Source of the DNA: a virus
Taxonomy: Duplodnaviria > Caudoviricetes
Strand: one strand, 5' to 3'
DNA: 53,009 nt
IMG/VR virus record: IMGVR_UViG_3300029258_001781
Span: 1 to 53,009 of that record
Part shown: piece after piece, positions 15,243 to 30,449 of the stretch
Numbering within the stretch: position 1 is the first letter of the stretch
Layout: each line of letters opens with the position of its first letter
Notes under the pieces: generated by a model
Databases searched by the model: none
What the model saw: the letters and a program-made list of their open reading frames with translations, nothing else
What the model was told of the DNA's origin: nothing
Made by a program: the position numbers and the translations under genes

Positions 15243-15925
15243 AGGAAATCCCTCCCCGTTCGAAACTCGTACTTGCGCAGCCGGTCCAGAAACTCGGCGG
15301 CAGCGTTTTCGAAGTCCCAATACTGGAGTTCCACGCCCTCGTACTTCCGGTGCCCCTCCCGCACCGCGGGCCAGTCTTTCGAATCCAGCTCGCCATAGAA
15401 AGCCGTCGCCTCCGTCACCAACATCCGCTGATCAACATCCTTGACCCAATATTCCCACGCGGCCAACTGGAACTTCGGCTGCGGCCAGAAACCAATCTTG
15501 GAAAGAACCGCATCCCGCACCCGGCGCTCCACCCGATGCAGGTCTCCCTTGAAATGCTGCTTGATCGGGGTCGGTATGTCCGTCACCCGATACTCGCCCG
15601 CATCATGCAGCAGGCCAAGAACCGCAAGGTCAGACCCCTCGTGCCACAAAACGTCGCACACGTGGCAGCAATGCTCTGCCACCGAATAGTGCTCGAAATC
15701 CCTCCCGATCCGACCACCGAAGCGAGGCATCCGCGCCAGCGTAAATGCCACTTCATCCAGGTCCACGTCGCTGGACGAAGTCTGCACCACGTCCGACACC
15801 ACCCCCTGCCAGTCCGCCAGCATTATCTCCGGCGCACCGTCCCACGGCTCACCATGAGTCCCCCCGATCATCTCCTTGCCATCGCTCCGCATCGCTTCGA
15901 TCCTTTCTGGTTTACCGCTTGACAT
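15239..15925 (-). CDS. HD-domain phosphohydrolase (YfdR/5'-deoxynucleotidase-like)
   Basis: RFGG...YSVAEH...LLHDAGE...DIPTPIK...D motifs. Confidence 0.85.
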   Translation of the reverse strand: MSSGKPERIEAMRSDGKEMIGGTHGEPWDGAPEIMLADWQGVVSDVVQTSSSDVDLDEVAFTLARMPRFGGRIGRDFEHYSVAEHCCHVCDVLWHEGSDLAVLGLLHDAGEYRVTDIPTPIKQHFKGDLHRVERRVRDAVLSKIGFWPQPKFQLAAWEYWVKDVDQRMLVTEATAFYGELDSKDWPAVREGHRKYEGVELQYWDFENAAAEFLDRLRKYEFRTGRDFL

Positions 15926-16493: not shown

Positions 16494-16539
16494 CGAAATA
16501 CCCTTTCTGGTTTTCCTTGTGAAGACTTGCACTAGGGTA

Positions 16540-17385: not shown

Positions 17386-17844
17386 TCAGTCCACAGAGCG
17401 CGCAGCAATGGCGGCCACCATAGCGCGATCGTGCTGGCGCTGCGCTTCGGCTATGGCGGCGCGGCTGTCTGGGCGATAGCTGGAGTAGCGCACGCCAACC
17501 CACGTAAGGCCGGAGACGCGCGCCGCGTCCAAGGGCCCAATATGGCGCAGACTGTGCGCTAGTGTCCGCCGCTGCACCTTGGACAGGTGGAAGAAATGCG
17601 GGGGGTCGTGCTTGGAGAGCAATCGTCTGGGGTCACGGATGGCGGCTTGCAGGGCTCTGATAGCGTCGTCTCTGGAGCGTATCACGGGCATTCCTTCGGG
17701 TGTGCCGGGTGTTGGCATAGGATCATGAGCTTCGAAGACGTGACAGGGCCCAGAGATGGCCGCAAAGGGAGATCTCCGGAATCGGGAGGGGTGCGGAGTA
17801 GAGCATGCGGCAGTGTGGGGAATGGGGATCGGGGTGGTGTTCAT
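17386..17844 (-). CDS. Possible hypothetical protein
   Basis: ORF in the divergence region; start uncertain. Confidence 0.35.
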   Translation of the reverse strand: MNTTPIPIPHTAACSTPHPSRFRRSPFAAISGPCHVFEAHDPMPTPGTPEGMPVIRSRDDAIRALQAAIRDPRRLLSKHDPPHFFHLSKVQRRTLAHSLRHIGPLDAARVSGLTWVGVRYSSYRPDSRAAIAEAQRQHDRAMVAAIAARSVD

Positions 17845-17965
17845 GGTCTACGCGCCCGGGAAGAAGACTAGACGTTAACCCATAACCCTCTCTCCACTCT
17901 CTTAAGAGGGAGGATAGATCGGGGGGGTGTGTAGTGTCAAGGGGTGGGGGTGTGGTGTGTGGCAG

Positions 17966-18109
17966 GGCCGCAAAATGCGTCCCCAAGTGACAAAATTTGC
18001 CACAGGGCAAGAATCGTACCAATTGATCTCGTGTGTTAGGTGTGGGGTGTTAAGTGGTTTGTCTTCGGTGGTATGGCTTCATGTGGTGGTGATCTGGCAT
18101 GGTGCGTGC
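17966..18109 (+). promoter_or_regulatory. Putative sigma54 (-24/-12) promoter with tandem upstream palindromes
   Basis: TGGCAT-N5-GTGC at 18095-18109; palindromes GGCCGCA-AAA-TGCGTCC (17966-17982) and GTGACAAA-A-TTTGCCAC (17987-18003). Confidence 0.5.
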
Positions 18110-18199
18110 GTACCTATTGCGGCTTTGCTCTTTTCAAGTTGAATCGCTGCGAGGGTCATCACGACCGGGGGAAAGTCCCCGGCGAAAGGATGATCACCA

Positions 18200-19366
18200 A
18201 TGACAACTGATAGTCTTATGAATCAGGGCGTAGATATGACCGTTTCCCAGCAGTGGGCGAAGCGTCCCGACGATCAGCGGTTTCTTACGTTGGAAGCCTT
18301 ATATGAGGCTTGCGGCGAGAAGGCGCGCGGCAGTCGGGAGATTCGGGAATCGCTGCGGGATCTGTCTGTCACCCTGACCGAAGACGGCGACGATCTCCGT
18401 TTGGCATTGCCGACGGAGGATCAAGAATACGAATTCACAAACTACAGTTTCGGCAGTCTGTGCAGCCGGGTCAAGGCTCCTCGGGGATACTTCGCGGAGC
18501 AGCTCAGCGGAGCGCCTGAACTGGCGGCGGAGTGCTTGAACCATTCGATCCAGGTTGCGCCGGATGAGTCGATTATGCCCTACGTATACGAGAACGGACG
18601 CGCGGAGCTTCGCGCGGCCACGTCTCAGAAGTACGGCAGGATCTACGATGCCGACGTAGCGCGGGCCCTTGTTGAGATGAACAATCGGCAGGGGGGGATC
18701 TGGAAGGTTCCCGGCACGCTGGATTGGAGCACTGGCCAACACGACGCGGGGACGGCTGTCACGAAGGAAAGTACCACGCTATACGCGAGCGATCGCGATA
18801 TGTTCGCTTTTCTCTGTGACGACCAGCACCCGATCGAAGTGGGCAAGCTTCCCAACGGGGAACCCGATCTGATGTTCCGGGGCTTCTACGTCTGGAATTC
18901 GGAGACGGGGAATAGCTCTTTTGGCTTTTCTTCTATGTACATGCGCGCGGTGTGCGCTAACCGCATTCTCTGGGGTGTGGAAGGGAAGAAAGAGATCACG
19001 TTTCGGCACTCCAAAAACGCGCCGCATAAGTTTCTGCGCGAAGTCGCGCCGATGCTGCGCGATTTCACCCAGAACAATACGCACGCGGTAACGGCTGGCG
19101 TCATCGAAGCCAAGCGGGAAACGCTTCCCAAGGATCGGAAAGACGTCATCCACTGGATCGCCAAGAATGCCGGCGTCCCTCAGAACCGGGCGACGGCGGC
19201 GGTTAACGCGGTCTACCGCGAAGAGGGCCGCGCGTGCCGGTCGGTGTGGGACGTGGCGCAGGGCCTCACGGCTGTAGCGCGGCGCATCCCGCACCAGGAT
19301 CAGCGGATCACGCTGGAGCGTGCCGCTAAGAAACTGTTGGACAAGGCCGCGCCCGCGCTGGCGTAG
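18200..19366 (+). CDS. DUF932 (phage/plasmid TIGR03299-like) protein
   Basis: QWAKRPDDQRFLTL, LYASDRDMF, WNSETG, RAVCANRILWG, RHSK. Confidence 0.85.
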   Translation: MTTDSLMNQGVDMTVSQQWAKRPDDQRFLTLEALYEACGEKARGSREIRESLRDLSVTLTEDGDDLRLALPTEDQEYEFTNYSFGSLCSRVKAPRGYFAEQLSGAPELAAECLNHSIQVAPDESIMPYVYENGRAELRAATSQKYGRIYDADVARALVEMNNRQGGIWKVPGTLDWSTGQHDAGTAVTKESTTLYASDRDMFAFLCDDQHPIEVGKLPNGEPDLMFRGFYVWNSETGNSSFGFSSMYMRAVCANRILWGVEGKKEITFRHSKNAPHKFLREVAPMLRDFTQNNTHAVTAGVIEAKRETLPKDRKDVIHWIAKNAGVPQNRATAAVNAVYREEGRACRSVWDVAQGLTAVARRIPHQDQRITLERAAKKLLDKAAPALA

Positions 19367-19435
19367 CACACGACGACGAGAGCAAACCATAACCAGAAAC
19401 GACCCCCGCAGCGATTCAACCCCGTACCACGGGAC

Positions 19436-19465
19436 AAGCGCCCAGACACGAGTCCGGGCGTTTTT
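19436..19465 (+). terminator. Intrinsic terminator
   Basis: GCGCCC...GGGCG stem followed by TTTTT. Confidence 0.7.
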
Positions 19466-19509
19466 CTTGTGGCATAGGGCCGCAACCTTTACCCGATAAG
19501 GATCACCCC

Positions 19510-19815
19510 ATGAACCAGGAAACCACCACCAAGCGCGAACCCTTGGCCAGTTATTCGGCCATGGTGAACCGCGCCACCGAAGAAGCCGGGAAGGCGATCC
19601 GCGCTGCTATTCGGCGCGGCATGCGTCCCAAGGTGCATTTGTACTACGCCCCCGGCGATCTGCTTTGCACCGAAGACGAGCCCCCCGAAGGCTACAAGCT
19701 CGCCACCGCGCAGTGCGTGCCACACTGGCGCGGGCGCGAAACGTGGCGCGCTTGGATCACGATGGTGTCTCGCTCGCTTCCTTGCATGCTAACGGACGGA
19801 GGATCGGATCGATGA
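19510..19815 (+). CDS. Early hypothetical protein
   Basis: AAGGATC RBS. Confidence 0.65.
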   Translation: MNQETTTKREPLASYSAMVNRATEEAGKAIRAAIRRGMRPKVHLYYAPGDLLCTEDEPPEGYKLATAQCVPHWRGRETWRAWITMVSRSLPCMLTDGGSDR

Positions 19816-19997
19816 CAATGGCAGAGCATGATCTTTGGTATGAACGCGGGCGCGCTGCGTTCCGGGCCCGGCATGGGCACTACCCCGATCACCTGATACC
19901 GCCGGAGGATACGCCCGAGGCTGACGCATTCGGCGAAGGTTTCGCGGACGAACACAGCGACTACGCAAGCAGCCAGGCAATTACGACCGGCTTCTAG
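19812..19997 (+). CDS. Small Rmf/CrpP-like protein
   Basis: WYERGRAAF...P...AFGEGF; ATGA overlap. Confidence 0.5.
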   Translation: MTMAEHDLWYERGRAAFRARHGHYPDHLIPPEDTPEADAFGEGFADEHSDYASSQAITTGF

Positions 19998-20080
19998 TGC
20001 CGCGCGCATCGGGCACGCTTTCGGGCGTGCCCCTTGCGGGCCGCATTGGGCGAGCCCACAAACCAGACAAGGATCAGACG

Positions 20081-20524
20081 ATGAGAACCTATCCCCTGAG
20101 AATCACCCAGGAGCAAGGCGAACACGCCGATCGGATCTATTCGGTGGCGTGCGCATGGGTTGGCCCCCCGGCGCGCGAATTCGATCGGGCTGAGTTGATG
20201 CGCGACTACGCGATCCAGACGATCCACGATATCCGCGACGCTGGCCACGCTGCGACGGTCTACTTTGACCCGTGGATCGACCTGCCCAACCAGATCGGGC
20301 CGGAGCTTCACCGCGCATGCTCGGACGATTGGCCCAGCGTACAGGCGCGGCGCGCGGTTGCGGAGTTGAACCGGATCGGGATGTTGCCCGGGGACGTTGA
20401 CCGCATCGCCGCCGCGCTGGCGATCGATCGGGTGTCGGACTTGCCCGCGCTTGTCCAGGTAGCGAACCGCTGCACGGCGGCGCTCTGCGCGCTGACCGAT
20501 CACGGGGATCTCGGGAATGGGTAG
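20081..20524 (+). CDS. Early hypothetical protein
   Basis: ACAAGGATC RBS. Confidence 0.65.
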   Translation: MRTYPLRITQEQGEHADRIYSVACAWVGPPAREFDRAELMRDYAIQTIHDIRDAGHAATVYFDPWIDLPNQIGPELHRACSDDWPSVQARRAVAELNRIGMLPGDVDRIAAALAIDRVSDLPALVQVANRCTAALCALTDHGDLGNG

Positions 20525-20741
20525 CCCGCGCGAACTGCAACCGGGCGATCAGGTGCATTTGTACGACTGGCCTTTGGACAGGATCGGCTTCATTGGGATC
20601 GCAACCATCCGCGAGCTGTACCCGCGCGAACGTGCGCCGCACCCGCTGCGCTTGGCGAAGGTTCACATCGAGGGCGACGGCGACGCGGTTACCTATGATC
20701 GCTACGTGGTCGGGTTTAATCGGGTCACCGATGGCCGCTAA
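20517..20741 (+). CDS. Early hypothetical protein (SH3-like beta barrel?)
   Basis: LQPGDQVHLY...IGIATI. Confidence 0.6.
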   Translation: MGSPRELQPGDQVHLYDWPLDRIGFIGIATIRELYPRERAPHPLRLAKVHIEGDGDAVTYDRYVVGFNRVTDGR

Positions 20742-20955
20742 CGGAGCATACACGCGACTAGAAGATCTCGCGGCTCGCGTGCGGGCTGCGGGGTTTATTT
20801 TGGAGACTGACGGCGCGGGATCGAATTGGCGCGGGTGCATTTACCCCGCTGGCGACGACTTCGCCGACCCCGTGATCGAAGTGACAGGAACAACGCGGCT
20901 CCGGGCTCAGTTGCTCGCATGCCGTGAGTTTATCAACCAGAGGAACGAACCATGA
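20731..20955 (+). CDS. Early hypothetical protein
   Basis: Coupled to neighbours. Confidence 0.55.
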   Translation: MAANGAYTRLEDLAARVRAAGFILETDGAGSNWRGCIYPAGDDFADPVIEVTGTTRLRAQLLACREFINQRNEP

Positions 20956-21257
20956 TCGCAATTGAAACCAGATACCACGGAGCAACGAACACAAAGCCAT
21001 CAAGCGTAACGGCGCGGACCCACGACGGACACAAAATCCGCCTGACTTGGGATACCGACGTAGACGCCTACGATATGCACGCGCGCGCGGCGCTGGCGCT
21101 CTGTCACAAATTGGGCTGGACGCCCAAAGGCAAGCACGGCGGAAAGCACATGCACACGCTACAGGGTGCGGGCACGCGGGCCGGTTACGTGTTCGCGTTC
21201 ATTGACGAGGATTACCAGATCAAGATCACGGAGGCGGAAGCATGCAATACACAGTAA
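20952..21257 (+). CDS. Early hypothetical protein (MIAIETRYHGATNTK-type)
   Basis: GAGGA RBS; N-terminal motif common in phage early regions. Confidence 0.7.
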   Translation: MIAIETRYHGATNTKPSSVTARTHDGHKIRLTWDTDVDAYDMHARAALALCHKLGWTPKGKHGGKHMHTLQGAGTRAGYVFAFIDEDYQIKITEAEACNTQ

Positions 21258-21742
21258 CGGCAGACCACGCCCCCGCAACCGTGCCCACGCCCTACCGGGT
21301 GCGCTACCAGGACGGATCGACCGTAGCGCATTGCCAGCAACCGCAAGAAGCGCAACGGATCGCGGATTGCCTGAACGCTTGCGCGGGGATGGATGACCCG
21401 GCAGCGGAGATCGCGCGGATGCGAGACGTACTCGAAAGCGTAGCGGCAGGCAATACCGAGATCGCGGCGCTGGAAGAAGCAGCCCGCGCCGCGCTCAGGG
21501 AGTCCAGCACCGAGCCCGCCTCCACCGAATACCGCATCATCGGCTATTACGAGGACAACGGGCAGCGCTACGATCACACCCAGGCGGGCGAGAATTGGCA
21601 GGACGCGCTACAGATTCTCGCGGAAGGTGACATAGACGCGGACGCACTTTGGATCGTTTCGATCCTGCATGCGGGCACCGGGGACGCCGTAGATATTGGG
21701 ATCGGAGAAGCAACGATCGCGGATCTGTTGGGCGAAGTCTAG
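21242..21742 (+). CDS. Early hypothetical protein
   Basis: GGAGG RBS; AQRIADCLNACAG motif. Confidence 0.65.
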   Translation: MQYTVTADHAPATVPTPYRVRYQDGSTVAHCQQPQEAQRIADCLNACAGMDDPAAEIARMRDVLESVAAGNTEIAALEEAARAALRESSTEPASTEYRIIGYYEDNGQRYDHTQAGENWQDALQILAEGDIDADALWIVSILHAGTGDAVDIGIGEATIADLLGEV

Positions 21743-21834
21743 CCCGTGCCCCCACATTAGGCGCGGGGCTCCGGCTCCGCGCCCTTTGTGGCGGCATGAG
21801 TCGCCGAAACCAGAACCAACCAGGAGATCGGATA

Positions 21835-22350
21835 ATGGAATTAGTCGAAGTATGGGAGCCCGGCAACGGGCTGCGCTACGAGCTGATGCTACAGCACATC
21901 CAGAACGAAACCCCGAATGATATTTACGGCGATTGGAAAATGGAAAACCGTCATATCGGCGGGATCACCGTGGCACTGAGTGCAAGCGATCAGTTTGTGC
22001 AGAGCGCAGAAACTACGCACTGGCGGCACTGCGACACGACGCCGGCGCAGCTTGCGAGGGAATACGCCGCCCGAGGAATGGATCGCCCTGATTCAACCGC
22101 ATATCAACACCTGAGAGCACAGCTCCGTGACGCGATACTGGGCGACAGCTTGCACGTGGTGTTCCGCGTATCATGGGGGAATATCACGCTGGCGGAGGAT
22201 TCCATCGGCACGTGCACGGAGTATCTCGGCAATCACGAGGAAGCCGCGCGCGAAGTTATGGCGGATTATTTCGACGTGTTCGAGCTCACGGCGGAGGCTT
22301 TGCGCCATGCGCGGACATACGCCGATGAACTTGACCAGATCGCAGCCTAA
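21835..22350 (+). CDS. Early hypothetical protein
   Basis: AGGAGATCGG RBS. Confidence 0.6.
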   Translation: MELVEVWEPGNGLRYELMLQHIQNETPNDIYGDWKMENRHIGGITVALSASDQFVQSAETTHWRHCDTTPAQLAREYAARGMDRPDSTAYQHLRAQLRDAILGDSLHVVFRVSWGNITLAEDSIGTCTEYLGNHEEAAREVMADYFDVFELTAEALRHARTYADELDQIAA

Positions 22351-22492
22351 CGAGCCCGGGCCCGGGGTGCGTGCCCCGGGCCCATGGAGGAAACCATGCG
22401 CCGCTTTGCTCCTTGGGTGGCGGTCGGGCTCGCCCTTTACCAACTGAGCCGGATCGTTTACCTTGTCATCACCACCAAATGAGGATCAGACC

Positions 22493-22642
22493 ATGAACAA
22501 CGCTATTGCAACGCTTGCCGGGATACTCGCCCGCAATGCCAACCCGGACAGCCCGCTGTACTGCCAGCTCCGCCGCATCGAGATCGACGCCATCGCGGAC
22601 GCCATCGGACACTTGAGCCCATGCGCGGAGGATCGGTCATGA
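22493..22642 (+). CDS. 49-aa early peptide
   Basis: GAGGATCAG RBS; ATGA overlap with the next gene. Confidence 0.55.
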   Translation: MNNAIATLAGILARNANPDSPLYCQLRRIEIDAIADAIGHLSPCAEDRS

Positions 22643-22866
22643 GCTACACCCCGTCCTACCGCCACAAAAGCCGCCCGGTATCGGAGGCCGCCGTACTTGA
22701 ACACGCGCTAGACCTGCATCACCTAGACCAAATGATCCAAGTACGCGAAGCGCACCGCGATCAAGTTCCCCCGGAAATGCTAGAGAAATTCGACCGCGTA
22801 ACCGAAGCGCTTGAAATGGCACACGCGGCACTGGAACGCGAGCAGGTGGCCCCATGTTACAACTGA
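22639..22866 (+). CDS. Early hypothetical protein
   Basis: GAGGATCGG RBS. Confidence 0.55.
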   Translation: MSYTPSYRHKSRPVSEAAVLEHALDLHHLDQMIQVREAHRDQVPPEMLEKFDRVTEALEMAHAALEREQVAPCYN

Positions 22867-23384
22867 TTTTCGGCATGGACCCCGGGAAGTCGGGCGCGAT
22901 CGCTTGGGCAACCAACGACGGTCGGCACGGACACACCAAGATGCCGGCGGACAGCCGCGCACTGCTGGAGTATTTGCGCGCTATCCGCTTCGAGATTGCG
23001 CCGGATGAGTCATTTGCATTCATTGAGCACGTCGGTGGGCTGTTCATCGGCAATATCGCCAAGAAGCAGATACACCAACTCACCAAGGGCGACGCCAAAA
23101 CCCTGATGAACGCGCTGCAACGATCGAGCGCCAACTTGTCGCTGCGCGAAAATCTGGGCGAGCTGCGCATGGGCTGCACCGCATGTGGGATCACCGTAGC
23201 CAAGGAGCCGCGGCCGCAACACTGGATGAAGCGCTTGGATCTGGCGCAGACAGACTCCGCCAAGCGCAAGACGGAGATTTACGAGCGCATGCAACAACAG
23301 TTTCCGGACTGGAAGTTTCCCAAGTACGCCGCCGATGCTGTCGCTCTGGTCGACTACGGCCAGACGTGGTTGCGCGACAAATGA
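22854..23384 (+). CDS. RuvC-like Holliday junction resolvase
   Basis: IFGMDPGKSGAIA, AFIEHV, PQHWMK, ADAVAL. Confidence 0.85.
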   Translation: MLQLIFGMDPGKSGAIAWATNDGRHGHTKMPADSRALLEYLRAIRFEIAPDESFAFIEHVGGLFIGNIAKKQIHQLTKGDAKTLMNALQRSSANLSLRENLGELRMGCTACGITVAKEPRPQHWMKRLDLAQTDSAKRKTEIYERMQQQFPDWKFPKYAADAVALVDYGQTWLRDK

Positions 23385-23569
23385 AGCGGCGTAGTTGCCC
23401 GACGTGCGGAAGCCGTAGCGTTTCTACGATCCACGACGGCGCTGAGTGCGAGAATCCGCCAGCACCGGGCGAACCGGAATGGGAGCGCGAGTGGAGCCCG
23501 TTCTACGAACACATTTGTGCCCGGTGCGGTGCTGAGTGGTTCACCCTTATCGAACTGGAGCGCTGGTGA
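23381..23569 (+). CDS. Zinc-ribbon protein
   Basis: CPTCGS...CARCGAEW; ATGA overlap. Confidence 0.65.
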   Translation: MKRRSCPTCGSRSVSTIHDGAECENPPAPGEPEWEREWSPFYEHICARCGAEWFTLIELERW

Positions 23570-23581
23570 ATACGACACCAC

Positions 23582-23610
23582 TTGACACCAGGCGACAAGT
23601 CATGTAATCT
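23582..23610 (+). promoter_or_regulatory. Strong sigma70-type promoter P1
   Basis: TTGACA-17 bp-TAATCT. Confidence 0.8.
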
Positions 23611-23616
23611 CCGAGC

Positions 23617-23702
23617 TACTTGCAGCGCCGATCCTTGTCAGATCGAGCTTCTCATACTAGGCCGCGCCCCTTTTCTGGTTTGGGGGCGCGGTCGCTGCTT
23701 TT
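23617..23702 (+). ncRNA. Putative ~85-nt small RNA
   Basis: Lies between P1 and a GC hairpin (23660-23693) plus TTTT; closing stem GCAGCG/CGCTGC; CGATC/GATCG hairpin with CUUGUCA loop; no ATG-started ORF. Confidence 0.6.
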
Positions 23703-23711
23703 ACGGGGCAC

Positions 23712-23740
23712 TTGACGACGCAGTTGCCCGATGCTACGAT
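23712..23740 (+). promoter_or_regulatory. sigma70-type promoter P2
   Basis: TTGACG-17 bp-TACGAT with extended -10 TG. Confidence 0.75.
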
Positions 23741-23746
23741 ACGCGC

Positions 23747-24295
23747 CAGTATGAAAGCTTCCCACAGACAACAAGGATCGTCCCGCGCCCACGGCTTTCA
23801 GGCGCGTCGTTGCTCGATCCAAGCCCCGGGGCGGCCAGGGATAAGCTGGAACCAGACGTGTACCCGCCACGGCCAAGCACCTGCGATTTCGACACGGGGC
23901 TCTAAGCAGAGAATCGGGCAACGAGGACTTTCACCCGCAAATGGAGCCCGAGTGATCGGGCTGGAAGGTATCGCGCACCAGAGAAAGCGCGCGAAGGAAG
24001 CTCCCCTAGTCTGGTCGCTAAACACAGTCTGATCTAAACCGGATCGAGGGACTGTCTACTGGGTGGTGAATAACTGACCAGAAGGGAGCGGGTGCATCTT
24101 ACTGCGAACGCGGACCCCAGATCCACCCTGCACCACGGCAGGTAGTACATCGGCCGTCAGGGCCGTTCCGAGACTCGACCCAGCCCTCGCCGTGACAATT
24201 CTTGCATAGGAGTTTCGGTGCCGTGCCCTTTACGGCGCCCGGTCGAGCTGCTGGCTTGATGGGTGTCATCGGCTGCATGTCTCGTAACTCCAGTC
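23747..24295 (+). ncRNA. Putative large (~550 nt) structured non-coding RNA
   Basis: Downstream of P2; many nested helices; no credible ORF. Confidence 0.5.
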
Positions 24296-24303
24296 GTTTA
24301 GTG

Positions 24304-24321
24304 CTGATACCAGTGTATCAG
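24304..24321. promoter_or_regulatory. Palindromic operator candidate CTGATAC-CAGT-GTATCAG
   Basis: Perfect 7-bp inverted repeat ~35 bp upstream of the XRE gene promoter. Confidence 0.55.
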
Positions 24322-24354
24322 GACTCCATGCGTATCGCCACCTGAACACCAGGG

Positions 24355-24383
24355 TTGACTTTCTGATAGCAGAGTGCTAGTCT
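24355..24383 (+). promoter_or_regulatory. sigma70-type promoter P3
   Basis: TTGACT-17 bp-TAGTCT with extended -10 TG. Confidence 0.75.
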
Positions 24384-24409
24384 CGTGGTTACAGCAAAGG
24401 AGTCACGAT

Positions 24410-24628
24410 ATGGCATTGTTGCTCGATGGAGAGAAGATCCGGAAACGCCGAGCCGAATTGCAAATTCGGCAACGCGACCTTGCCACGCCGCTCAACACGT
24501 CGGAGTCTTATGTCAGCCGGCTCGAGCGAAGCAAGACAGCTTCGAAGCCCGAAACCATTCGCGCGCTGTCGAAGACGTTGAAGTGCAAGCCGTCGGACCT
24601 GATGACCGAGGTCGACGAGGACGAATAG
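24410..24628 (+). CDS. XRE-family HTH transcription regulator (Cro-like)
   Basis: IRKRRAELQIRQRDLA...SESYVSRLER...LKCKPSDL; AAGGAG RBS. Confidence 0.9.
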   Translation: MALLLDGEKIRKRRAELQIRQRDLATPLNTSESYVSRLERSKTASKPETIRALSKTLKCKPSDLMTEVDEDE

Positions 24629-24712
24629 TTTTCCTCCCCCGAAGCGGGGCCGGCCGTTGCCCAACCACCCTCCCAGCGGCCGGCCCCCAGCCTTAATTGA
24701 ATCAGTTTTTAT

Positions 24713-25188
24713 GCCCAACCAAGCGCCCCTGAACTACCAGTCAAGCGGAGTCGTCACACTGCGGCTTTGGAGTGTGCCTCAAGGTTGGGCATGCCTTTGG
24801 TGGTGTGGCGCGCAGTGCTGACGAGCACGGGAGAGTATGCCAGCCCGGTAGCGCGGACCACCGCCATTACCTTATCTGGGTTCGCCCAGCGTGCCGTCCA
24901 AACCGAGCACCTAGATCGGCTGGTACATGGATAGCGGGGTTGCTCCCGCGAAGCCCAGCGGCACGAAATACATTTGAATCTTTTGGCGGGCAGTAATCAT
25001 CCGGCCAGTAGTGATCGTTTTCTAAGCGCTCTCCTACCGGGCAGTGACGTTGGTGAGAAACCAACTCCCGCCACTCTTTTGCGGTGCTCGACGAGCGTGT
25101 GCCTCAGTGCGTAATGGGATCGCGGCACAAGTAAGAGCCCTCACTGCCTGCCACCCTAGAGGAGCACAAGGCAATGGGGGCCACCGCA
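24713..25188 (+). ncRNA. Array of five tRNA-sized closed-stem RNAs (tRNA-like)
   Basis: Units 24713-24791, 24799-24866, 24878-24957, 24985-25073 and 25081-25188; each has paired ends plus a 3' A; U-rich spacers. Confidence 0.5.
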
Positions 25189-25300
25189 TTCGATTTGGTT
25201 GTCAATCTTCCCCTGGCAACCGTTCATGGCGGCCTGTTGTCGCCATGCCCCGGGTCGCCTGTATGCGGCCTAGGGGCACTTTTTGAACAAGGAGCACGAC

Positions 25301-26338
25301 ATGAGCAAAGGCAGGAAGCTGCGCAAGTATCCAGGCCCCGAAGGCCCAGAGTTTCGAGAGTTCGCGACCGAGAACGAATGGCTGGCGGGGCGCCGCGCGC
25401 GCATGCAGGCCAGTGAGATCGCCACGCTGTTCATCGACGAGATCGAGGAGCAGGGGCAGACCACGTATCACACCCCGTACACGCTGGCGCTGGAGAAGAT
25501 CGGTGCGACACAGAAGATTTTCACCGACCGGGAGAAGCAACGTAACTGGATCTCCCACCGCACCGAGGAAGTGATCGGCCAGTTCTGGCGCGAGTACGAC
25601 CCCTGCAAGAGCACTTGGCGCGCCGACCAGCACACTATCCTAGAGCGCCCGGAAATGCCCCACGTAGGCGCCACACTCGACTTCATGACGGTGATTCCGG
25701 ACGAGGGCGGTGCGATGCCGCTCGAATGCAAAGCCGCAGGCGAGTGGGGGCGCCGGGAGTGGCGGGATGGTGACGTGCCGCTCAAGTTTCAGGTACAGGC
25801 CAGCCTACAGATGGCGGTGACGGGCACCGATCGCGCGGTTGTATTCTGTCTCATTGGCGGCTACACCCCGAAGTGGACGATTATCGATCGCGACGAAGAC
25901 TTGATCAAGATCGCCATTGATCGCGCAACGGAGTTCATGGAAATGATCCGCGCCGGCAAACTTCCGCCGGTGGACGGTCGGGCTCTGACGTCGACCGTAC
26001 TGAACATGCTGCATCCAGACGACAACGGCCATTCCATCAGCCTGCCCAGTGACGCGGACGCATGGTTCGAATCATTGGACTTCCTCAAGTACAAGCGCAA
26101 CGAGGTCGAGCGCGAGGAAGAACGGCTCAAGCAGTCCGTGAAGGAGTGCATGGGCGAGAACACTTACGGTGAGACGGAGGATATCGAGTTCTCTTGGAAG
26201 ACCGAGGGCGGGAAGCCGCAATACCTGAAAGTCCCGTTGAACAACGCGAACGACCTTGTGGCGGCGGGCATCGAGTTCAAAACACATCTGTCGGCAAAGA
26301 AGCGAGTTCTGCGTCGTAAGGAAAAACCGAAAGGATAG
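25301..26338 (+). CDS. YqaJ/lambda-exonuclease family recombination nuclease
   Basis: EWLAGRR...ASEIA, GATLD, LECKA, QVQAS; AAGGAG RBS. Confidence 0.88.
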   Translation: MSKGRKLRKYPGPEGPEFREFATENEWLAGRRARMQASEIATLFIDEIEEQGQTTYHTPYTLALEKIGATQKIFTDREKQRNWISHRTEEVIGQFWREYDPCKSTWRADQHTILERPEMPHVGATLDFMTVIPDEGGAMPLECKAAGEWGRREWRDGDVPLKFQVQASLQMAVTGTDRAVVFCLIGGYTPKWTIIDRDEDLIKIAIDRATEFMEMIRAGKLPPVDGRALTSTVLNMLHPDDNGHSISLPSDADAWFESLDFLKYKRNEVEREEERLKQSVKECMGENTYGETEDIEFSWKTEGGKPQYLKVPLNNANDLVAAGIEFKTHLSAKKRVLRRKEKPKG

Positions 26339-26341
26339 GCC

Positions 26342-27502
26342 ATGGAGAACGACGATCAGCAAGCCTTGGAGGTACAAGCGACCGTACACCCGATTCAGGC
26401 AATGGAGCGGTCGCAGCTTGAGACTCAGATTGAGCTGGCCCATAAGTACCCGCGCGACGTGGCGAAGTGTTTGGACAACGCCAAGTCTCTCATCGAGATG
26501 GACCAGACCACCGCGCGCGAGGCGTTCTACAGTCTGGATCACTACGGCGGCGCCCCCGTGGTCGGCCCGAGTATCCGCATGGCCGAAATGCTGGCGTCGT
26601 CGTGGGGCCACATCACCTACGGATCGCGTCCGCTCGATATTGAGGATAAGGTCGTGCGCGCCCAGGGTGTCTGCTACGACTTCCAGACGAATACGCGCGT
26701 GGTGGTGGAGAAAACCCGGCCGATCGTGGACAAGCGTGGCGTGCGCTTCACCAAGGCGCACCTGATCAACAACGCCATGCTGGCGGCACAGGCGATCGCC
26801 GAGCGTGATGCTATCTTGAAGGTAATCCCGCGGGCCTACGCCAACAAGCTGATGGACGAAGCCATGGAGATCGCCAGCGGCAAAGGGTTGACCATGGGCG
26901 AGAAGGTGAACGCCGCGATTGCAGCGTTCGCCGACCTCGACGAGTCGATCACCGACAAGATGCTGTTCCTCGTGCTGGGCGTGCAGGACAAACGCTCTAT
27001 GACGATCGCCCATGTCACGCGGCTGCGTACCATCTACAGCACGATTCGCGAGGGGCACGCGACCATTCACGACTACCTCATGCAAGACCCGGGCGAAGAA
27101 GATGGCGCGGCGAAGGAGTCGAAGAACAAGATGACCGAGGCGGCGAAGAAGGCGGAGGAAGCGAAGAAGGCGAAGAAGCCGCCGGCGGACAAGAAAAAGA
27201 AACCCGACCAGGAGCCCGAGCCGCCGGCCAAGGATCCGGAGCCCGAACCCGAGGAGAAGGAAGAGCCCCCCGAGCCGGAAGTCGAACCGGAGCCGGAGCA
27301 GGAGCCCGATGAAGACGGCGTCGTTGAAGAAGAGGCGCCGGATCGGGAGGCTTTGCTGATTGAGTGGGAAGAAGAGTCCGCGCCCCTGAGCAAGAAGGCG
27401 CGCATGCAAATCCTCGAAGACGTCGGCAGTCTCGACGGCGTTGCGGCCAACCTCGATGCTGACCAGCTTGCACAGGCGGTCAGTCTCGCAAAAGGAGATT
27501 AG
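26342..27502 (+). CDS. Putative single-strand annealing recombinase partner
   Basis: Follows the exonuclease; AHKYPRD, GPSIRMAE motifs; acidic Pro-rich C-terminus. Confidence 0.6.
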   Translation: MENDDQQALEVQATVHPIQAMERSQLETQIELAHKYPRDVAKCLDNAKSLIEMDQTTAREAFYSLDHYGGAPVVGPSIRMAEMLASSWGHITYGSRPLDIEDKVVRAQGVCYDFQTNTRVVVEKTRPIVDKRGVRFTKAHLINNAMLAAQAIAERDAILKVIPRAYANKLMDEAMEIASGKGLTMGEKVNAAIAAFADLDESITDKMLFLVLGVQDKRSMTIAHVTRLRTIYSTIREGHATIHDYLMQDPGEEDGAAKESKNKMTEAAKKAEEAKKAKKPPADKKKKPDQEPEPPAKDPEPEPEEKEEPPEPEVEPEPEQEPDEDGVVEEEAPDREALLIEWEEESAPLSKKARMQILEDVGSLDGVAANLDADQLAQAVSLAKGD

Positions 27503-27504
27503 CG

Positions 27505-28047
27505 TTGAAGTTTCGTAAGAAGCCGGTCGTAATTCATGCCGTTCAGTTCGACGGCAACAACCACGCCGAGGTCGTTGAGTTCTCGATGGCGAACGTATCG
27601 CACTCGGAACAAGACGGCAGCCTCACAATCGAAACGCTGGAAGGCACCCTCACGGTGTCGCCGGGTGACTGGGTCATTAAGGGGGTGAAGGGCGAGCACT
27701 ACCCCTGCAAGCCTGATATTTTCGAGCAAACCTACCAGCCCGCAGACTTGAGCATGAATTTCGGACAGGCCATTGAGGCACTCAAGAACGGCAACAAAGT
27801 CTGTCGTGCTGGCTGGAACGGCAAGGGCATGTGGATCGTGCTCATGCCTGCGTTGAGCCTGCCGCCGCATTCGTCGCAGGAGCCCGGAGCCAAGGTCAAC
27901 GACCGCACTGCCAAGCACATCGGCGAGGATACGCCGCTCGACTCGCAGCCGTACATCGCCATGTGGACCGCGCAGGGGCAGTGGCAGCCGGGATGGTTGG
28001 CGTCCCAGGCCGACATGCTCGCCGAGGACTGGCAGATCGCCGATTAA
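27505..28047 (+). CDS. Fusion of KKPVV/PGDW domain and DUF2829 (Tad2-like nucleotide sponge)
   Basis: N-term FRKKPVVIHAVQ...PGDWVIKG...YPCKPDIFEQTY; C-term MNFGQAIEALKNG.KV.RAGWNGKGM...WLASQADMLAEDW. Confidence 0.8.
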   Translation: MKFRKKPVVIHAVQFDGNNHAEVVEFSMANVSHSEQDGSLTIETLEGTLTVSPGDWVIKGVKGEHYPCKPDIFEQTYQPADLSMNFGQAIEALKNGNKVCRAGWNGKGMWIVLMPALSLPPHSSQEPGAKVNDRTAKHIGEDTPLDSQPYIAMWTAQGQWQPGWLASQADMLAEDWQIAD

Positions 28048-28075
28048 CGACACCACCAAACCGTAAGGACACAAC

Positions 28076-28534
28076 ATGCTCACCGAGATTTACGCAACCC
28101 TGGACAAACACGTGGCGTCGGCCAAGTCCGACAACATCGAAATCACCTGCACGATCCCGCATGAACTGGCAGTCGAAGAATTTCTGCTGCACATGCGGCA
28201 CAACAAGCACTACCTGCGCATGACCGACTTCGACCGCGGCAATGGCAAGACCAAGGAGTGGCCGGAGATTCTGGGCTCGATCAAGGGTCCGAAGTTTCCC
28301 GACAAGAACGACTCGCCGGGCTCGTTTGTCTTCGTCACCGAGTACAACATGGCCGTGCTCAAGGCTCTCGACTGGATTCGCAAGTGCGACCCGCGGCAGA
28401 TCCGTTTTGTCGATTCGCAGATGATGATTCCCAGCGACGACGATGACGAGCAGGAAGACGATCCGCAGACGGAGATCAGCACCGAGCCTGACGAGGGGTC
28501 GGAGCCCGAAGAAGAAGAAGAAGAAACCGAGTAG
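28076..28534 (+). CDS. Hypothetical protein with acidic tail
   Basis: AAGGA RBS. Confidence 0.7.
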   Translation: MLTEIYATLDKHVASAKSDNIEITCTIPHELAVEEFLLHMRHNKHYLRMTDFDRGNGKTKEWPEILGSIKGPKFPDKNDSPGSFVFVTEYNMAVLKALDWIRKCDPRQIRFVDSQMMIPSDDDDEQEDDPQTEISTEPDEGSEPEEEEEETE

Positions 28535-28553
28535 CCGGCGGCAATGGAAACCC

Positions 28554-28588
28554 AGCCCGCCCATGCTTCGGTGTGGGCGGGTTTTTTA
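28554..28588 (+). terminator. Intrinsic terminator
   Basis: GCCCGCCCATGC-TTCG-GTGTGGGCGGG followed by T7. Confidence 0.9.
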
Positions 28589-28603
28589 TGAAAGGACGGC
28601 GCT

Positions 28604-28843
28604 ATGAACGTCGACTTGTTGAAAATGACTGCGCTTGCCGACAGCATCTACTCGACGAAACTTTCGGGCCTACATTCGAGCGAGCAGTTCTTGGTGATCG
28701 AAATGCTGAAAGCGAAGTGGGCCGAAACTCAAATTCGCCAGCACTGTATAGCGGCGGTGGCGCGAGTAGAGCCCGCATTGATAGATGAGATCACGGAAAA
28801 AGTAACTGAAAAGCTGGGTGACAAGAGGGAGCCGAGGTTTTGA
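28604..28843 (+). CDS. Hypothetical protein
   Basis: AAGGA RBS. Confidence 0.6.
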   Translation: MNVDLLKMTALADSIYSTKLSGLHSSEQFLVIEMLKAKWAETQIRQHCIAAVARVEPALIDEITEKVTEKLGDKREPRF

Positions 28844-29721
28844 GTAAGGACACGGCGATCGAGTGGTGCGATAGTTCCTGCAATCCACTGATGGGCTGCG
28901 AGGGCTGCGAGTTGTGGCATCCCGAGCGTGGCGGCACATGCTACGCGGCCGCATGGGTCGATCGGTACAAGGGCAGCAAGGGCTATCCCGACAACTTCGG
29001 CCAACCCCAGTGGTTCCCTGGCCGGGCGGAGCAGGCGGCGGACTGGAGCGACCTGACTGGCGAGAAGAGACCCGATAAGCCGTGGCTCAACGGCCGGCCG
29101 CGGCACATCTTCAACGTCGACATGGGGGATCTGTTCTCCAAGCAGATCGCTTTCGAGGACATACTGACCCACGCATGGGAACCCATGATGAGCATTCCGG
29201 GGCGCCGGCACGTGTGGCTGGTGCTGACGAAGCGCCCCCGTCGCGCGGTCGAGTACGAGGAGTGGCAGCGCTGGACGAGGGCGATCGTGCGGCCGCGCAA
29301 CGTCATGCTGATGGTAAGCATCACCGACCAGAACAGCGTCAAGCGGCTCGACCCGTTGGCGAAACTGGACCCGGCCATCCCGATCGGCGCCAGCATCGAG
29401 CCCTTGCTTGGCCCGGTAAACCTGTTTCCTGCCCTCTCACAGTTCGATCGCGACCCACCGCTGGACTGGGTAATCGTTGGGGGCGAGTCTGGCCCTGACA
29501 GGCGCCCCATGCAACCCGACTGGGTCCGCCTGATTCGGGACCAGTGCCAACAGTGGGGCATCCCGTTCTTCTACAAGCAGCGCGTGACTTCGAAGGGAAA
29601 GGATCACGTGCCGGAAATCGACGGGCGGCAGTGGGTCGAGATGCCAAACATCGGGGCATCACCGCTTGGCCCGCGGCCGTACATGGGTAAACATGGCTGG
29701 TGCCAGGAGGTAGCGACGTGA
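28840..29721 (+). CDS. DUF5131 / phage Gp37Gp68 family protein (radical-SAM-like)
   Basis: TAIEWCD...GC..C...CYA, DMGDLF, LTKRP, SIEPLLG, WVIVGGESG, PFFYKQ. Confidence 0.9.
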   Translation: MSKDTAIEWCDSSCNPLMGCEGCELWHPERGGTCYAAAWVDRYKGSKGYPDNFGQPQWFPGRAEQAADWSDLTGEKRPDKPWLNGRPRHIFNVDMGDLFSKQIAFEDILTHAWEPMMSIPGRRHVWLVLTKRPRRAVEYEEWQRWTRAIVRPRNVMLMVSITDQNSVKRLDPLAKLDPAIPIGASIEPLLGPVNLFPALSQFDRDPPLDWVIVGGESGPDRRPMQPDWVRLIRDQCQQWGIPFFYKQRVTSKGKDHVPEIDGRQWVEMPNIGASPLGPRPYMGKHGWCQEVAT

Positions 29722-29876
29722 ACCTTGAGCCCCAAGTCGACAATCGCGTCCCGGAAAACTGTGTCCTGATCATCGGCGCCAACGAAACCGCGGTGCTCCT
29801 GCACATGCCTTCTGGCACCATATTCACTTACGATCACGGTGCTGTTTCCGTGACAGTATCACAGGACTCTTGCTGA
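29718..29876 (+). CDS. 52-aa hypothetical protein
   Basis: AGGAGG RBS, GTGA overlap. Confidence 0.45.
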   Translation: MNLEPQVDNRVPENCVLIIGANETAVLLHMPSGTIFTYDHGAVSVTVSQDSC

Positions 29877-29898: not shown

Positions 29899-29926
29899 GT
29901 GGGGCATCACCAACAGGAGACGACCC

Positions 29927-30442: not shown

Positions 30443-30449
30443 CGCAATC

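What the first reader, a model, noticed from the sequence alone, without database searches (positions are those of the whole stretch)
23582..23702. Phage sRNA whose seed is antisense to a shared, atypical RBS motif of the early genes (candidate early-gene shut-off system)
Seen: a near-consensus promoter (TTGACA-17-TAATCT) and a terminator bracket an ~85-nt unit with no credible ORF, right at the end of the early operon. Its seed GCCGAUCCUUGUC (23627-23639, partly in a hairpin loop) is complementary to a motif 1-8 nt upstream of several early start codons: GACAAGGATC 20066-20075 (10/10 Watson-Crick), GATAAGGATC 19495-19504 (one G-U), GAGGATCGG 19799-19807, ACGGGGATC 20502-20510, ATGAGGATC 22479-22487, GAGGATCGGT 22628-22637, plus partial sites at 18186 and 21822. 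Middle and late genes use ordinary AGGAG RBSs instead (e.g. upstream of 24410, 25301, 39507, 50992, 51748, 4920, 7108). Inference: one trans-acting RNA could block translation of the early class through a co-evolved RBS motif, giving an RNA-based early-to-middle switch. Alternatives: the motif resembles CsrA/RsmA sites (ARGGA), or is partly a by-product of local GATC enrichment.
Basis: partly seen in the sequence, partly recalled or inferred. Interest (0 to 1): 0.85.

Follow-up and report, generated by a model that had tools for sequence, protein, structure and literature searches.

The report
Candidate phage antisense small RNA
A short promoter-to-terminator unit at the end of one operon of an uncultured phage probably makes a small folded RNA whose loops match the ribosome-landing sites of a few of the phage's own genes, but whether it controls them is unproven.

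Summary
The sequence facts hold. TTGACA-17-TAATCT (23582-23610) and a GC-rich hairpin with a U4 tail (23660-23702) bracket an ORF-free stretch of about 86 nt. RGGATC lies 4-6 nt before 6 of 12 start codons in the rightward operon 18200-23569, against 1 of 47 elsewhere.

Three qualifications apply:
- The -10 hexamer is only 3/6, and the terminator is non-canonical.
- GATC and GGATC are enriched throughout that operon's coding sequence, and the phage encodes two Dam-family methylases. The RBS motif is therefore only partly RBS-specific (p about 0.01 after conditioning).

New here: the terminator loop (UUUCUGGUUU) complements a second motif, AACCAGA, just 5' of several SDs. The linker complements AUGAGAA. 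Together, 24 of 38 nt of the translation-initiation region (TIR) of gene 20081-20524 are covered. That is matched by 24 of 32,214 natural windows and 5 of 3,000 loop permutations.

Accessibility-aware energies rank early TIRs first but are modest (-5 to -10 kcal/mol). By strength alone, 19 of 215 random genomic windows do as well.

No relatives, RNA data or covariation could be obtained. My verdict is a plausible c4/RNAIII-like anti-TIR RNA with one main target (about 0.3). A global early shut-off switch is not supported.

The parts
23582..23610 (+). Promoter-like site P1: -35 TTGACA, 17-nt spacer, -10 TAATCT (3/6 to TATAAT)
   Evidence: Member of a TTGAC-N17-19-TANNNT family found 7 times against 1.26 expected. 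Not listed by the stricter scan.
23617..23702 (+). Predicted RNA of about 86 nt, Y-shaped. Base stem 23622-23626 / 23694-23698. 5' hairpin 23627-23633 / 23641-23648 with loop 1 CUUGUCA (23634-23640). Linker 23649-23659. Terminator stem 23660-23671 / 23682-23693 with loop 2 UUUCUGGUUU (23672-23681). U4 tail 23699-23702.
   Evidence: MFE -41.4 kcal/mol, z -4.35, 0 of 200 shuffles as stable. No coding potential. No Rfam match.
23627..23639 (+).
   Evidence: Hybrid energies reach -19.1 kcal/mol, but net energies are only -6.4 and -4.8 because nt 11-17 are paired.
23649..23656 (+). Module 2, single-stranded linker UUCUCAUA, complementary to AUGAGAA at the start of gene 20081
   Evidence: sRNA nt 33-40 against target -1..+6, net -4.5 kcal/mol
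23672..23682 (+). Module 3, terminator loop UUUCUGGUUU(G), complementary to (C)AAACCAGA(AA)
   Evidence: I6; best net energies -10.1, -8.0 and -6.8
20059..20087 (+). TIR of gene 20081-20524, the best predicted target: CAAACCAGA + GACAAGGATC + ATGAGAA
   Evidence: 24 of 38 nt are covered by exact complements of 7 nt or more. This is matched by 24 of 32,214 natural windows and 5 of 3,000 loop permutations.
15898..15913 (-). TIR of leftward gene 15239-15892 (dNMP phosphatase-like): AAACCAGAAAGGATCG, carrying both motifs
   Evidence: coverage 16
16504..16513 (-). AAACCAGAAA just 5' of the SD of leftward gene 15912-16493
   Evidence: net -6.5; coverage 17
21807..21815 (+). AAACCAGAA upstream of gene 21835-22350 (a gene absent in a variant strain)
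   Evidence: (net -8.0)
20935..20941 (+). AACCAGA abutting the SD of gene 20952-21257
   Evidence: net -6.8
19495..19504 (+). GATAAGGATC before gene 19510-19815
   Evidence: net -4.8
19799..19807 (+). GAGGATCGG before gene 19812-19997. One base at 19806 is missing in contigs of all 4 runs laid.
   Evidence: (net -6.4)
22628..22637 (+). GAGGATCGGT before gene 22639-22866
   Evidence: hybrid -18.3 kcal/mol, but net positive
22479..22487 (+). ATGAGGATC before gene 22493-22642
23712..23740 (+). Second promoter-like site P2 (TTGACG-17-TACGAT, with TG), 10 nt after the terminator
23771..23780 (+). Orphan ACAAGGATCG in the non-coding P2 leader, a 10-nt complement of module 1 with no start codon behind it

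Best explanation
The unit is a real transcription unit. A host-type promoter (P1) sits 13 nt after the last stop codon of the rightward operon. It shares that operon's terminator, giving a Y-shaped RNA of about 85 nt.

Three exposed or semi-exposed parts of the RNA are antisense to the building blocks of a recurring translation-initiation region (AAACCAGA - RGGAUC - AUGAG). These parts are loop 1 with its stem flank, the linker, and the terminator loop.

The RNA most likely acts in trans as an anti-TIR antisense RNA, in the way phage P1 c4 RNA or S. aureus RNAIII do. It would start by loop contacts and occlude the 30S landing site. Its main target is gene 20081-20524. Weaker sites lie at 21835, 20952, 19812 and 19510, and at the leftward genes 15239 and 15912.

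Shown: the sequence anatomy, the fold, the promoter family, the complementarity and its statistics. Inferred: that the RNA is made, that it pairs, and that pairing represses.
For: - P1 is one of 7 matches to TTGAC-N17-19-TANNNT (1.26 expected; 0 of 100 shuffles reach 7). Five of the 7 lie between called genes and point at the gene or unit downstream of them.
- P1 lies upstream of the terminator, whereas P2 lies just after it. That placement makes sense only if a short RNA is the product.
- The fold is stable, z -4.35. There is no coding potential.
- Accessibility-aware energies put 20081 (-10.1), 21835 (-8.0) and 20952 (-6.8) as the top 3 of 59 TIRs. Early versus other TIRs gives Mann-Whitney p 0.001.
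- Shuffling bases within the unpaired segments gives a sum of the 4 best early energies of -14.3+-4.0, against -29.3 for the real RNA (0 of 147 as low).
- Early TIRs beat 150 internal windows of the same operon, p 2e-4.
- Only 2 of 215 natural windows are as early-selective.
- 24 of 38 nt of the 20081 TIR are covered by exact complements of 7 nt or more. On any TIR this is reached by 24 of 32,214 natural windows and 5 of 3,000 loop permutations.
- Modules 1 and 3 are colinear with adjacent target halves in 20081 and 15239.
- The three modules are not in the order an inverted duplication would give.
Against: - No transcript data. No RNA run is listed and none could be laid.
- No relatives, so no conservation or covariation.
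- The -10 hexamer is 3/6, the tail is only U4 and lies 5 nt from the main stem, and neither element passed the consensus scan.
- Net energies are modest (-5 to -10 kcal/mol).
- By strength, 19 of 215 natural 86-nt windows bind the early TIRs as well.
- By plain k-mer sharing the unit sits only in the top 0.6-2% of 21,170 windows.
- Forming 9 bp inside a 10-nt terminator loop is topologically strained.
- Module 1 is half buried in a stem.
- Complementary sites also lie inside genes: 19129-19138 and 20580-20588.
- Five of the 12 early TIRs score weaker than -2.5 kcal/mol.
- Contigs of all 4 runs laid lack one base at 19806, inside a claimed site.
- GATC enrichment of the whole operon explains part of the shared motif.
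- A constitutive promoter firing from time zero gives no obvious delay for a switch.
Confidence: 0.3

Rival explanations
1. The hairpin is simply the terminator of the operon 18200-23569. P1 is either a minor or fortuitous promoter, or one of three stacked promoters (P1, P2, P3) feeding the next module. The complementarity to RBS regions has no function. It would follow from the operon-wide GATC/GGATC enrichment, from A/C-rich unstructured leaders, and from a U-rich loop.
For: - GATC is 64 against 39.4+-4.1, and GGATC 27 against 14.8+-3.0, in the operon's coding sequence only.
- P(TC | GGA) is 0.22 there, so 6 of 10 SDs gives p 0.011.
- The RNA carries 2 GATC in 86 nt, as the local density predicts.
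- 19 of 215 natural windows bind the early TIRs as strongly.
- By k-mer sharing the unit is only in the top 0.6-2%.
- P2 and P3 exist downstream.
Against: - A chance promoter match inside the ~50 nt before a terminator is unlikely: 1.26 are expected in 106 kb of both strands.
- Loop permutations never reach the observed value (0 of 147).
- The three-module cover of one TIR is rare: 24 of 32,214 windows.
- The AACCAGA module has nothing to do with GATC.
Confidence: 0.3
2. The unit is a promoter-proximal terminated leader, like lambda PR'-tR' (6S RNA) or an attenuator. Transcripts from P1 stop at the hairpin unless a phage factor lets RNA polymerase read on into the HTH and recombination module. 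The short RNA would be a by-product.
For: - The architecture is a regulator-like small gene, then a promoter, then a terminator within 90 nt.
- The 62-aa zinc-ribbon protein encoded just upstream has a weak partial match to a Q-like antiterminator family (phrog_127, E 0.0027, residues 4-52 against profile positions 187-239 of 253).
- The review read lists lambda 6S as an Hfq-bound RNA of unknown function.
Against: - The protein is 62 aa and matches only about 50 of the 253 positions of the Q-like profile, the part that contains its cysteine pairs. Its Pfam hits are generic zinc ribbons below cut-off.
- Downstream genes are an HTH regulator, a RecE-like exonuclease and similar, not lysis or structural genes.
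- Two further promoters follow the terminator, so read-through is not needed.
- The single-sequence model of the protein is poor (pLDDT 66.7).
Confidence: 0.13
3. The element works in cis as the 3' UTR of the polycistronic early mRNA. Its anti-TIR modules would fold back on TIRs of the same molecule, or protect its 3' end, as described for the icaR 3'UTR-5'UTR pairing in S. aureus. No separate small RNA would be needed.
For: - Every transcript of 18200-23569 that stops at this terminator carries all three modules.
- The same complementarity statistics apply.
- The title and abstract start of PMC3868564 (listing) show that such 3'UTR anti-SD pairing exists.
Against: - The leftward genes 15239 and 15912 carry the best-matching motifs but lie on other transcripts.
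- P1 would be unexplained.
- The targets lie 1.2-4 kb away from the modules on the mRNA.
Confidence: 0.1
4. RGGATC at the start sites is read by something other than this RNA. It could be a DNA-level GATC signal linked to the phage's two Dam-family methyltransferases. It could also be an RNA-binding protein that recognises A(N)GGA, of the CsrA/RsmA type. The RNA's GAUCC would then be incidental.
For: - Two Dam-family genes are present: PF05869, E 9.4e-21 at 10807-11406 and E 2.7e-7 at 9164-9862.
- GATC is enriched with z about +6 in this operon alone.
- The preferred contexts are SGATC and GATCG.
- ACAAGGAUC resembles the CsrA consensus as I recall it; that resemblance comes from no call.
Against: - The enrichment is asymmetric: GGATC yes, GATCC no. 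A palindromic methylation site does not predict that.
- The position 4-6 nt before the start is much tighter than the operon background (Poisson p 4.5e-7).
- The host and its CsrA status are unknown.
- This reading does not address AACCAGA or the promoter-terminator unit.
Confidence: 0.15

Closest known systems
Phage P1/P7 c4 antisense RNA (immunity; represses ant through the RBS region)
   Same: Both are small, structured, phage-encoded RNAs. Short complementary sequences sit in loops and pair around a ribosome binding site of a phage gene encoded elsewhere, blocking translation (review PMC12197685, section 7 read). That c4 uses two separate loop sequences is my recollection.
   Different: c4 acts on one operon and, as I recall, is processed out of the transcript it controls. 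Here the RNA has its own promoter at the 3' end of an operon and several candidate targets on two divergent operons. There is no sequence or structure match to any Rfam family. Nothing has been tested experimentally.
S. aureus RNAIII (hairpin loops, including the 3' hairpins, pairing with SD regions of a class of mRNAs)
   Same: One RNA uses hairpin loops to bind several TIRs that share a motif, and can bind two separate regions of one mRNA. The two-region binding is from the title and abstract start of PMC2837412 in the listing. The role of the terminator hairpin loop is recalled.
   Different: RNAIII is a bacterial quorum-sensing effector of about 500 nt with C-rich loops against GGG in SDs. 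Here the RNA is an 86-nt phage RNA with U-rich and GAUCC modules. The predicted energies are weak.
Phage T4 RegB endoribonuclease and RegA translational repressor
   Same: Both are class-specific post-transcriptional shut-off of early genes through a short motif in their TIRs. RegB cuts GGAG in intergenic SDs of early mRNAs, while most middle and all late messages escape. RegA binds many TIRs (review PMC3014915, passages read).
   Different: The T4 agents are proteins, not RNA. The T4 motif is an ordinary SD. Here only 5 of the 12 early TIRs reach -5 kcal/mol, and timing control is not evident.
Lambda PR'-tR' 6S RNA
   Same: Both are short terminated transcripts from a promoter placed right after a small regulator-like gene. 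6S is listed as an Hfq-bound phage RNA of unknown function.
   Different: The lambda unit exists to be antiterminated by Q into the late genes (recalled). Here the downstream genes are not late genes, further promoters follow, and the upstream protein is a 62-aa zinc ribbon with only a weak partial Q-like match.
Bacterial 3'UTR-overlapping small RNAs with their own promoter that share the mRNA's terminator (for example MicL, DapZ; recalled, from no call)
   Same: The architecture is the same: a promoter at or just beyond the end of a coding region, with the operon's terminator reused as the small RNA's terminator.
   Different: Those are host RNAs that depend on Hfq and usually have longer U tails. 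Here the host and chaperone are unknown and the tail is U4.

Membership tests
Independently transcribed base-pairing small RNA | Own promoter | tested here: met
   TTGACA-17-TAATCT belongs to a family found 7 times against 1.26 expected. This is a motif match only. It was not listed by the stricter scan.
Independently transcribed base-pairing small RNA | Intrinsic terminator giving a defined 3' end | tested here: inconclusive
   There is a 12-bp GC-rich stem, a base stem extending to the U tract, and a U4 tail. The terminator scan did not list it.
Independently transcribed base-pairing small RNA | No protein-coding capacity | tested here: met
   The ORF overlapping the unit that was scored (23582-23905) has a negative codon score, -0.18 per codon. 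The ORFs of the flanking non-coding DNA (from 23652 on) have no family hits.
Independently transcribed base-pairing small RNA | Detectable transcript of the predicted size | not testable with these tools
   No RNA run holds the locus.
Independently transcribed base-pairing small RNA | Accessible seed complementary to target TIRs above background | tested here: inconclusive
For.
Independently transcribed base-pairing small RNA | Conservation or covariation of seed and targets in relatives | tested here: inconclusive
   No relatives were found in phage records, viral, metagenome or genome contigs. The SNP table for the variant strain was truncated.
Any curated RNA family (Rfam 15) | Covariance-model match | tested here: not met
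   There were 0 matches at gathering score in the window. In E-value mode on 23400-24500 the only match was a chance miRNA hit, E 5.3. I did not check which phage antisense RNA families the library holds.
Lambda-type Q antitermination unit | Q-family protein encoded immediately upstream | tested here: inconclusive
   The 62-aa zinc ribbon matches phrog_127 at E 0.0027 over about 50 of the 253 profile positions. Its Pfam hits are generic zinc-ribbon families below cut-off.
Lambda-type Q antitermination unit | Late (lysis, structural) genes downstream of the terminator | tested here: not met
   Downstream lie an HTH regulator, a RecE/YqaJ-like exonuclease, a MazG-like protein and DUF5131. The structural genes are on the other strand.
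CsrA/RsmA-titrating RNA | Multiple GGA motifs, typically in hairpin loops | tested here: not met
   The 86-nt RNA contains no GGA. It carries the complement.
DNA operator (inverted repeat CGATC-N7-GATCG) | Repeated copies at regulatory sites | tested here: not met
   There are 2 matches against 0.92 expected. The other copy (6686-6702) lies in coding sequence.

The most novel reading that the evidence does not exclude
A phage small RNA carries three separate anti-TIR modules in its two loops and its linker. Together they read a modular 'initiation-region code' (AAACCAGA / RGGAUC / AUGAG) shared by a set of early genes on both divergent operons. One RNA would then switch off a gene class after infection. 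This would be an RNA counterpart of T4 RegB/RegA. The orphan motif copies in the neighbouring non-coding P2 leader would act as a decoy that sets the timing.
Probability: 0.1. Interest if true: 0.8.

Novelty: new variant of a known kind. Interest (0 to 1): 0.45.

Why it matters
Known phage antisense RNAs (c4, sar, OOP, aQ) each control one gene or operon. Class-wide shut-off of early genes is known only through proteins (T4 RegB and RegA).

A trans-acting phage RNA that recognises a shared initiation-region motif would add an RNA layer to phage temporal control. It would also give a compact, portable repressor-operator pair for synthetic biology.

Even the narrower reading would be a new example from an uncultured, orphan phage lineage. 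That reading is a c4/RNAIII-like RNA with three modules converging on one TIR. The pairing is directly testable with reporters in a laboratory strain.

If the rival is right, the useful result is different. It would be an unexplained, strand-biased GATC/GGATC enrichment confined to one operon of a phage that carries two Dam-family methylases.

Tried and rejected
- **Relatives.** All of the following failed, so no covariation test was possible.
  - blastn of 23300-24500 against phage records gave no match.
  - tblastn of the resolvase-like protein found one 28.7% hit, and of the 459-aa protein none.
  - Viral-contig scans with three proteins and one DNA pattern returned only L001. It shares a single gene and no synteny.
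  - A search of 5.8 billion proteins returned one 33% homologue.
  - Metagenome scans were empty.
  - The genome-contig pattern scan gave one chance hit in an AT-rich contig labelled Acetivibrio, L002. It is unrelated: a local blastn of L002 against the window (E-value limit 1e-5) returned no alignment, and the matched stretch reads as AT-rich sequence unlike the window.
- **Expression.** No RNA holder was listed for 21000-26000.
- **Strain variation.** Contigs of 4 DNA runs were laid. The table of differences was cut after 18063, so the 56 differences in 22386-24774 could not be placed. One X10 contig covering 23505-23655 has no differences.
- **duplexfold on full-length sequences** gave unrealistic long-loop duplexes and was dropped in favour of windowed, accessibility-corrected energies.
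- **First synonymous-shuffle script** timed out and was rewritten.
- **A second anti-AACCAGA element at 14431** lies in a small membrane-protein ORF and was rejected.
- **DNA operator idea.** The only other CGATC-N7-GATCG copy is coding.
- **P2 leader as a structured RNA.** z is -0.45.
- **ORFs in 23570-25300.** No family hits and negative codon scores.
- **Function of the main target protein.** No PHROG or Pfam family and no Atlas look-alike.
- **Structure prediction.** Single-sequence models were too poor to search with (pLDDT 46.1 and 66.7), so no fold search was run.
- **Not available.** IntaRNA and RNAup are not installed. Supplements of papers were not consulted.
- **Gene-caller gaps.** My simple gene caller missed at least four small genes. 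They are not in the 59-TIR set.
Full report
**Context.** The window is a complete 53,009-bp contig. It is found only in sediment and seawater metagenome runs. It is a phage.
- It encodes a large terminase, a DnaB-like helicase, a loader, an M15 peptidase, a 2,760-aa SLT-domain protein, a RecE/YqaJ-like exonuclease, a resolvase-like protein and a Cro/CI-type HTH.
- It is an orphan. It has no DNA match among 50,697 phage records. The protein next to the finding has one 33% homologue among 5.8 billion proteins.
- Genes run leftward over 1-16806 and 31225-53009, and rightward over 18200-31228.
- The finding sits at the end of the first rightward operon, 18200-23569 (12 called genes).

**The observation.**
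- The -35 hexamer is perfect, but the -10 TAATCT matches the consensus at 3 of 6. The consensus scan therefore lists neither this promoter nor the terminator.
- The promoter is nevertheless credible. TTGAC-N17-19-TANNNT occurs 7 times against 1.26+-1.12 expected, and no shuffle of 100 reaches 7. Five of the 7 copies lie between called genes and point at the gene or unit downstream of them: 23582, 23712 and 24355 rightward, and 17940 and 7625 leftward. A sixth (16562, leftward) lies inside a weak gene call.
- The 86-nt RNA folds into a Y shape (-41.4 kcal/mol, z -4.35). It has a base stem that brings the U4 tail next to the structure. It has a 5' hairpin with loop CUUGUCA, an 11-nt linker, and a 12-bp terminator stem with loop UUUCUGGUUU. 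Seven of the 13 seed bases are paired.
- None of the overlapping ORFs that were scored looks coding. No Rfam family matches.

**The RBS motif.** GGATC lies 4-6 nt before the start codon in 6 of 12 genes of this operon, and in 1 of 47 other genes (Fisher p 1.3e-4). Three of these TIRs share a 25-nt similarity (family D1).

The motif is not confined to RBSs, however.
- Against synonymous-codon shuffles, the operon's coding sequence holds 64 GATC (39.4+-4.1 expected, 0 of 200 shuffles as high) and 27 GGATC (14.8+-3.0, 1 of 200).
- GATCC is not enriched (7 against 7.3). The other three gene groups show nothing.
- The preferred contexts are SGATC and GATCG.
- Given that 22% of GGA in the region are followed by TC, 6 of 10 GGA-containing SDs gives p 0.011.
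- The phage encodes two Dam-family methyltransferases.

It does not explain all of it. The contrast is 'this operon versus the rest': most leftward genes beside the same control region use GGAG.

**A second and a third module.** The repeat search showed that the terminator's 5' arm and loop are 19/22 complementary to the stretch just 5' of the SD of gene 20081 (I6).
- The core, AACCAGA, recurs just upstream of or abutting the SD of 20081, 20952 and 21835, and of the leftward genes 15239 and 15912.
- The single-stranded linker UUCUCAU is complementary to AUGAGAA, the start of 20081.
- For 20081 and 15239 the loop-2 site and the seed site are adjacent on the mRNA. They are colinear with the RNA's two modules. 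The linker module is out of order for a simple inverted duplication.
- Exact complements of 7 nt or more cover 24 of the 38 nt of the 20081 TIR. On any TIR this is reached by 24 of 32,214 natural 86-nt windows (windows antisense to a TIR were excluded) and by 5 of 3,000 loop permutations.

**Energetics and controls.** I combined windowed duplex energies with unfolding costs for both partners.
- The best TIRs of 59 are 20081 (-10.1), 21835 (-8.0) and 20952 (-6.8), all through loop 2. Operon versus other TIRs gives p 0.001.
- Shuffling bases within the unpaired segments gives -14.3+-4.0 for the four best early TIRs, against -29.3 observed (0 of 147 as low).
- Early TIRs also beat 150 internal windows of the same operon (p 2e-4).

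Three results count against the reading.
- 19 of 215 random natural windows bind the early TIRs at least as strongly. Only the selectivity is unusual (2 of 215).
- By simple 7- and 8-mer sharing, the unit is in the top 2% and 0.6% of 21,170 windows.
- Other intergenic stretches, such as 17800-17885 on the minus strand, score better in absolute terms.

The net energies are modest. Five of the 12 operon TIRs score weaker than -2.5 kcal/mol.

**Strain variation.** Contigs from three runs carry a variant about 2.3% divergent. It lacks 21813-22385, which is the SD, gene 21835-22350 and a hairpin. All four runs lack one base at 19806, inside the claimed site before gene 19812. That shortens its match by one pair. 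The table of substitutions was truncated, so the unit itself could not be assessed, apart from one identical X10 contig over 23505-23655.

**What it most likely is.** The promoter sits before the terminator, while P2 sits 10 nt after it. This placement argues that a short RNA is the product. I put the chance that a discrete RNA is made at about 0.6.

The best single mechanism is an anti-TIR antisense RNA acting by loop contacts. Its main target is 20081-20524, a 147-aa protein of unknown function. A few weaker sites exist. I give this 0.3. A class-wide early shut-off gets about 0.1.

The rivals are an ordinary terminator with incidental complementarity (0.3), a terminated leader awaiting read-through (0.13), a cis-acting 3' UTR (0.1), and a motif read by methylation or a protein (0.15).

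**Comparison with known systems.** The closest in mechanism are P1/P7 c4 RNA (review section read) and S. aureus RNAIII (listing only). In purpose, the closest is T4 RegB/RegA (passages read). In layout, the closest are lambda 6S and bacterial 3'UTR small RNAs (recalled).

The unit matches no curated RNA family. Two literature searches and the 2025 review of phage small RNAs (sections 2 and 7 read) showed no phage RNA described as repressing a class of its own early genes through a shared RBS motif. That holds only for those searches.

**Verdict.** The unit is real and the motif is real. The functional link is plausible but unproven. It is narrower than proposed and partly confounded by operon-wide GATC enrichment. 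Interest 0.45.

Noticed in passing
window 18200-23569 (coding sequence); 9164-9862(-) and 10807-11406(-): GATC (64 against 39.4+-4.1) and GGATC (27 against 14.8+-3.0) are enriched over synonymous-codon shuffles in this operon only, while GATCC is not. The phage encodes two Dam-family (PF05869) methyltransferases. The strand-biased enrichment is unexplained.
   Followed up: partly
window 23570-24409, 24629-25300 and about 16807-18199: About 2.9 kb of DNA has no coding potential. All ORFs tested there have negative codon scores and no confident family hit. It surrounds a 72-aa HTH gene and the divergent control region. No Rfam match was found, and the 663-nt P2 leader is not unusually structured (z -0.45).
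   Followed up: partly
window 23771-23780 and 23850-23856: The non-coding leader behind promoter P2 carries orphan copies of both TIR motifs (ACAAGGATCG and AACCAGA) with no start codon behind them. They could act as a decoy for whatever reads these motifs.
   Followed up: no
window 18138-18157 and 19401-19420: A 20-nt inverted repeat, 19/20 complementary, brackets the whole DUF932 gene 18200-19366. It could be a long-range RNA duplex or a cassette boundary (I4).
   Followed up: no
window 21813-22385: A variant strain in three runs lacks this 573-nt cassette (own SD, gene 21835-22350 and a GC hairpin), which is moron-like. The junction creates AAACCA|GGAGG in front of a small uncalled ORF at 22397-22482.
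   Followed up: partly
window 19806: Contigs of all four runs laid lack one base in the GGATCGGATC run. That run is both the RBS of gene 19812 and the end of gene 19510-19815. This is either a polymorphism or an assembly error in the window.
   Followed up: no
window 17911-18014: Two promoter-like sites stand back to back and point away from each other: leftward TTGACA-18-TATCCT at 17940 and rightward GTGACA-16-AAGAAT at 17987. The rightward spacer holds the palindrome TTGCC-N4-GGCAA, which looks like an operator, possibly for the HTH protein of 24410-24628.
   Followed up: no
window 7108-6881(-), about 6870-6338(-), 14455-14323(-), 22397-22482(+): My simple caller missed these genes: a holin-like membrane protein with an AGGAG RBS, a following coding sequence, and two small hydrophobic ORFs.
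   Followed up: partly
window 31225-39507(-): A 2,760-aa protein has an SLT lytic transglycosylase domain (E 6.3e-28) and a weak GNAT match. It is probably an injected or tail-associated giant protein.
   Followed up: no
window 22763-23255: Run X10 holds a 496-nt contig 7% divergent (35 differences) over the resolvase-like gene. A more distant relative therefore exists in that sample.
   Followed up: no
window 17100-17175: A G-rich simple repeat (GGGGCTGGGGCTGGG...) lies in the non-coding control region.
   Followed up: no
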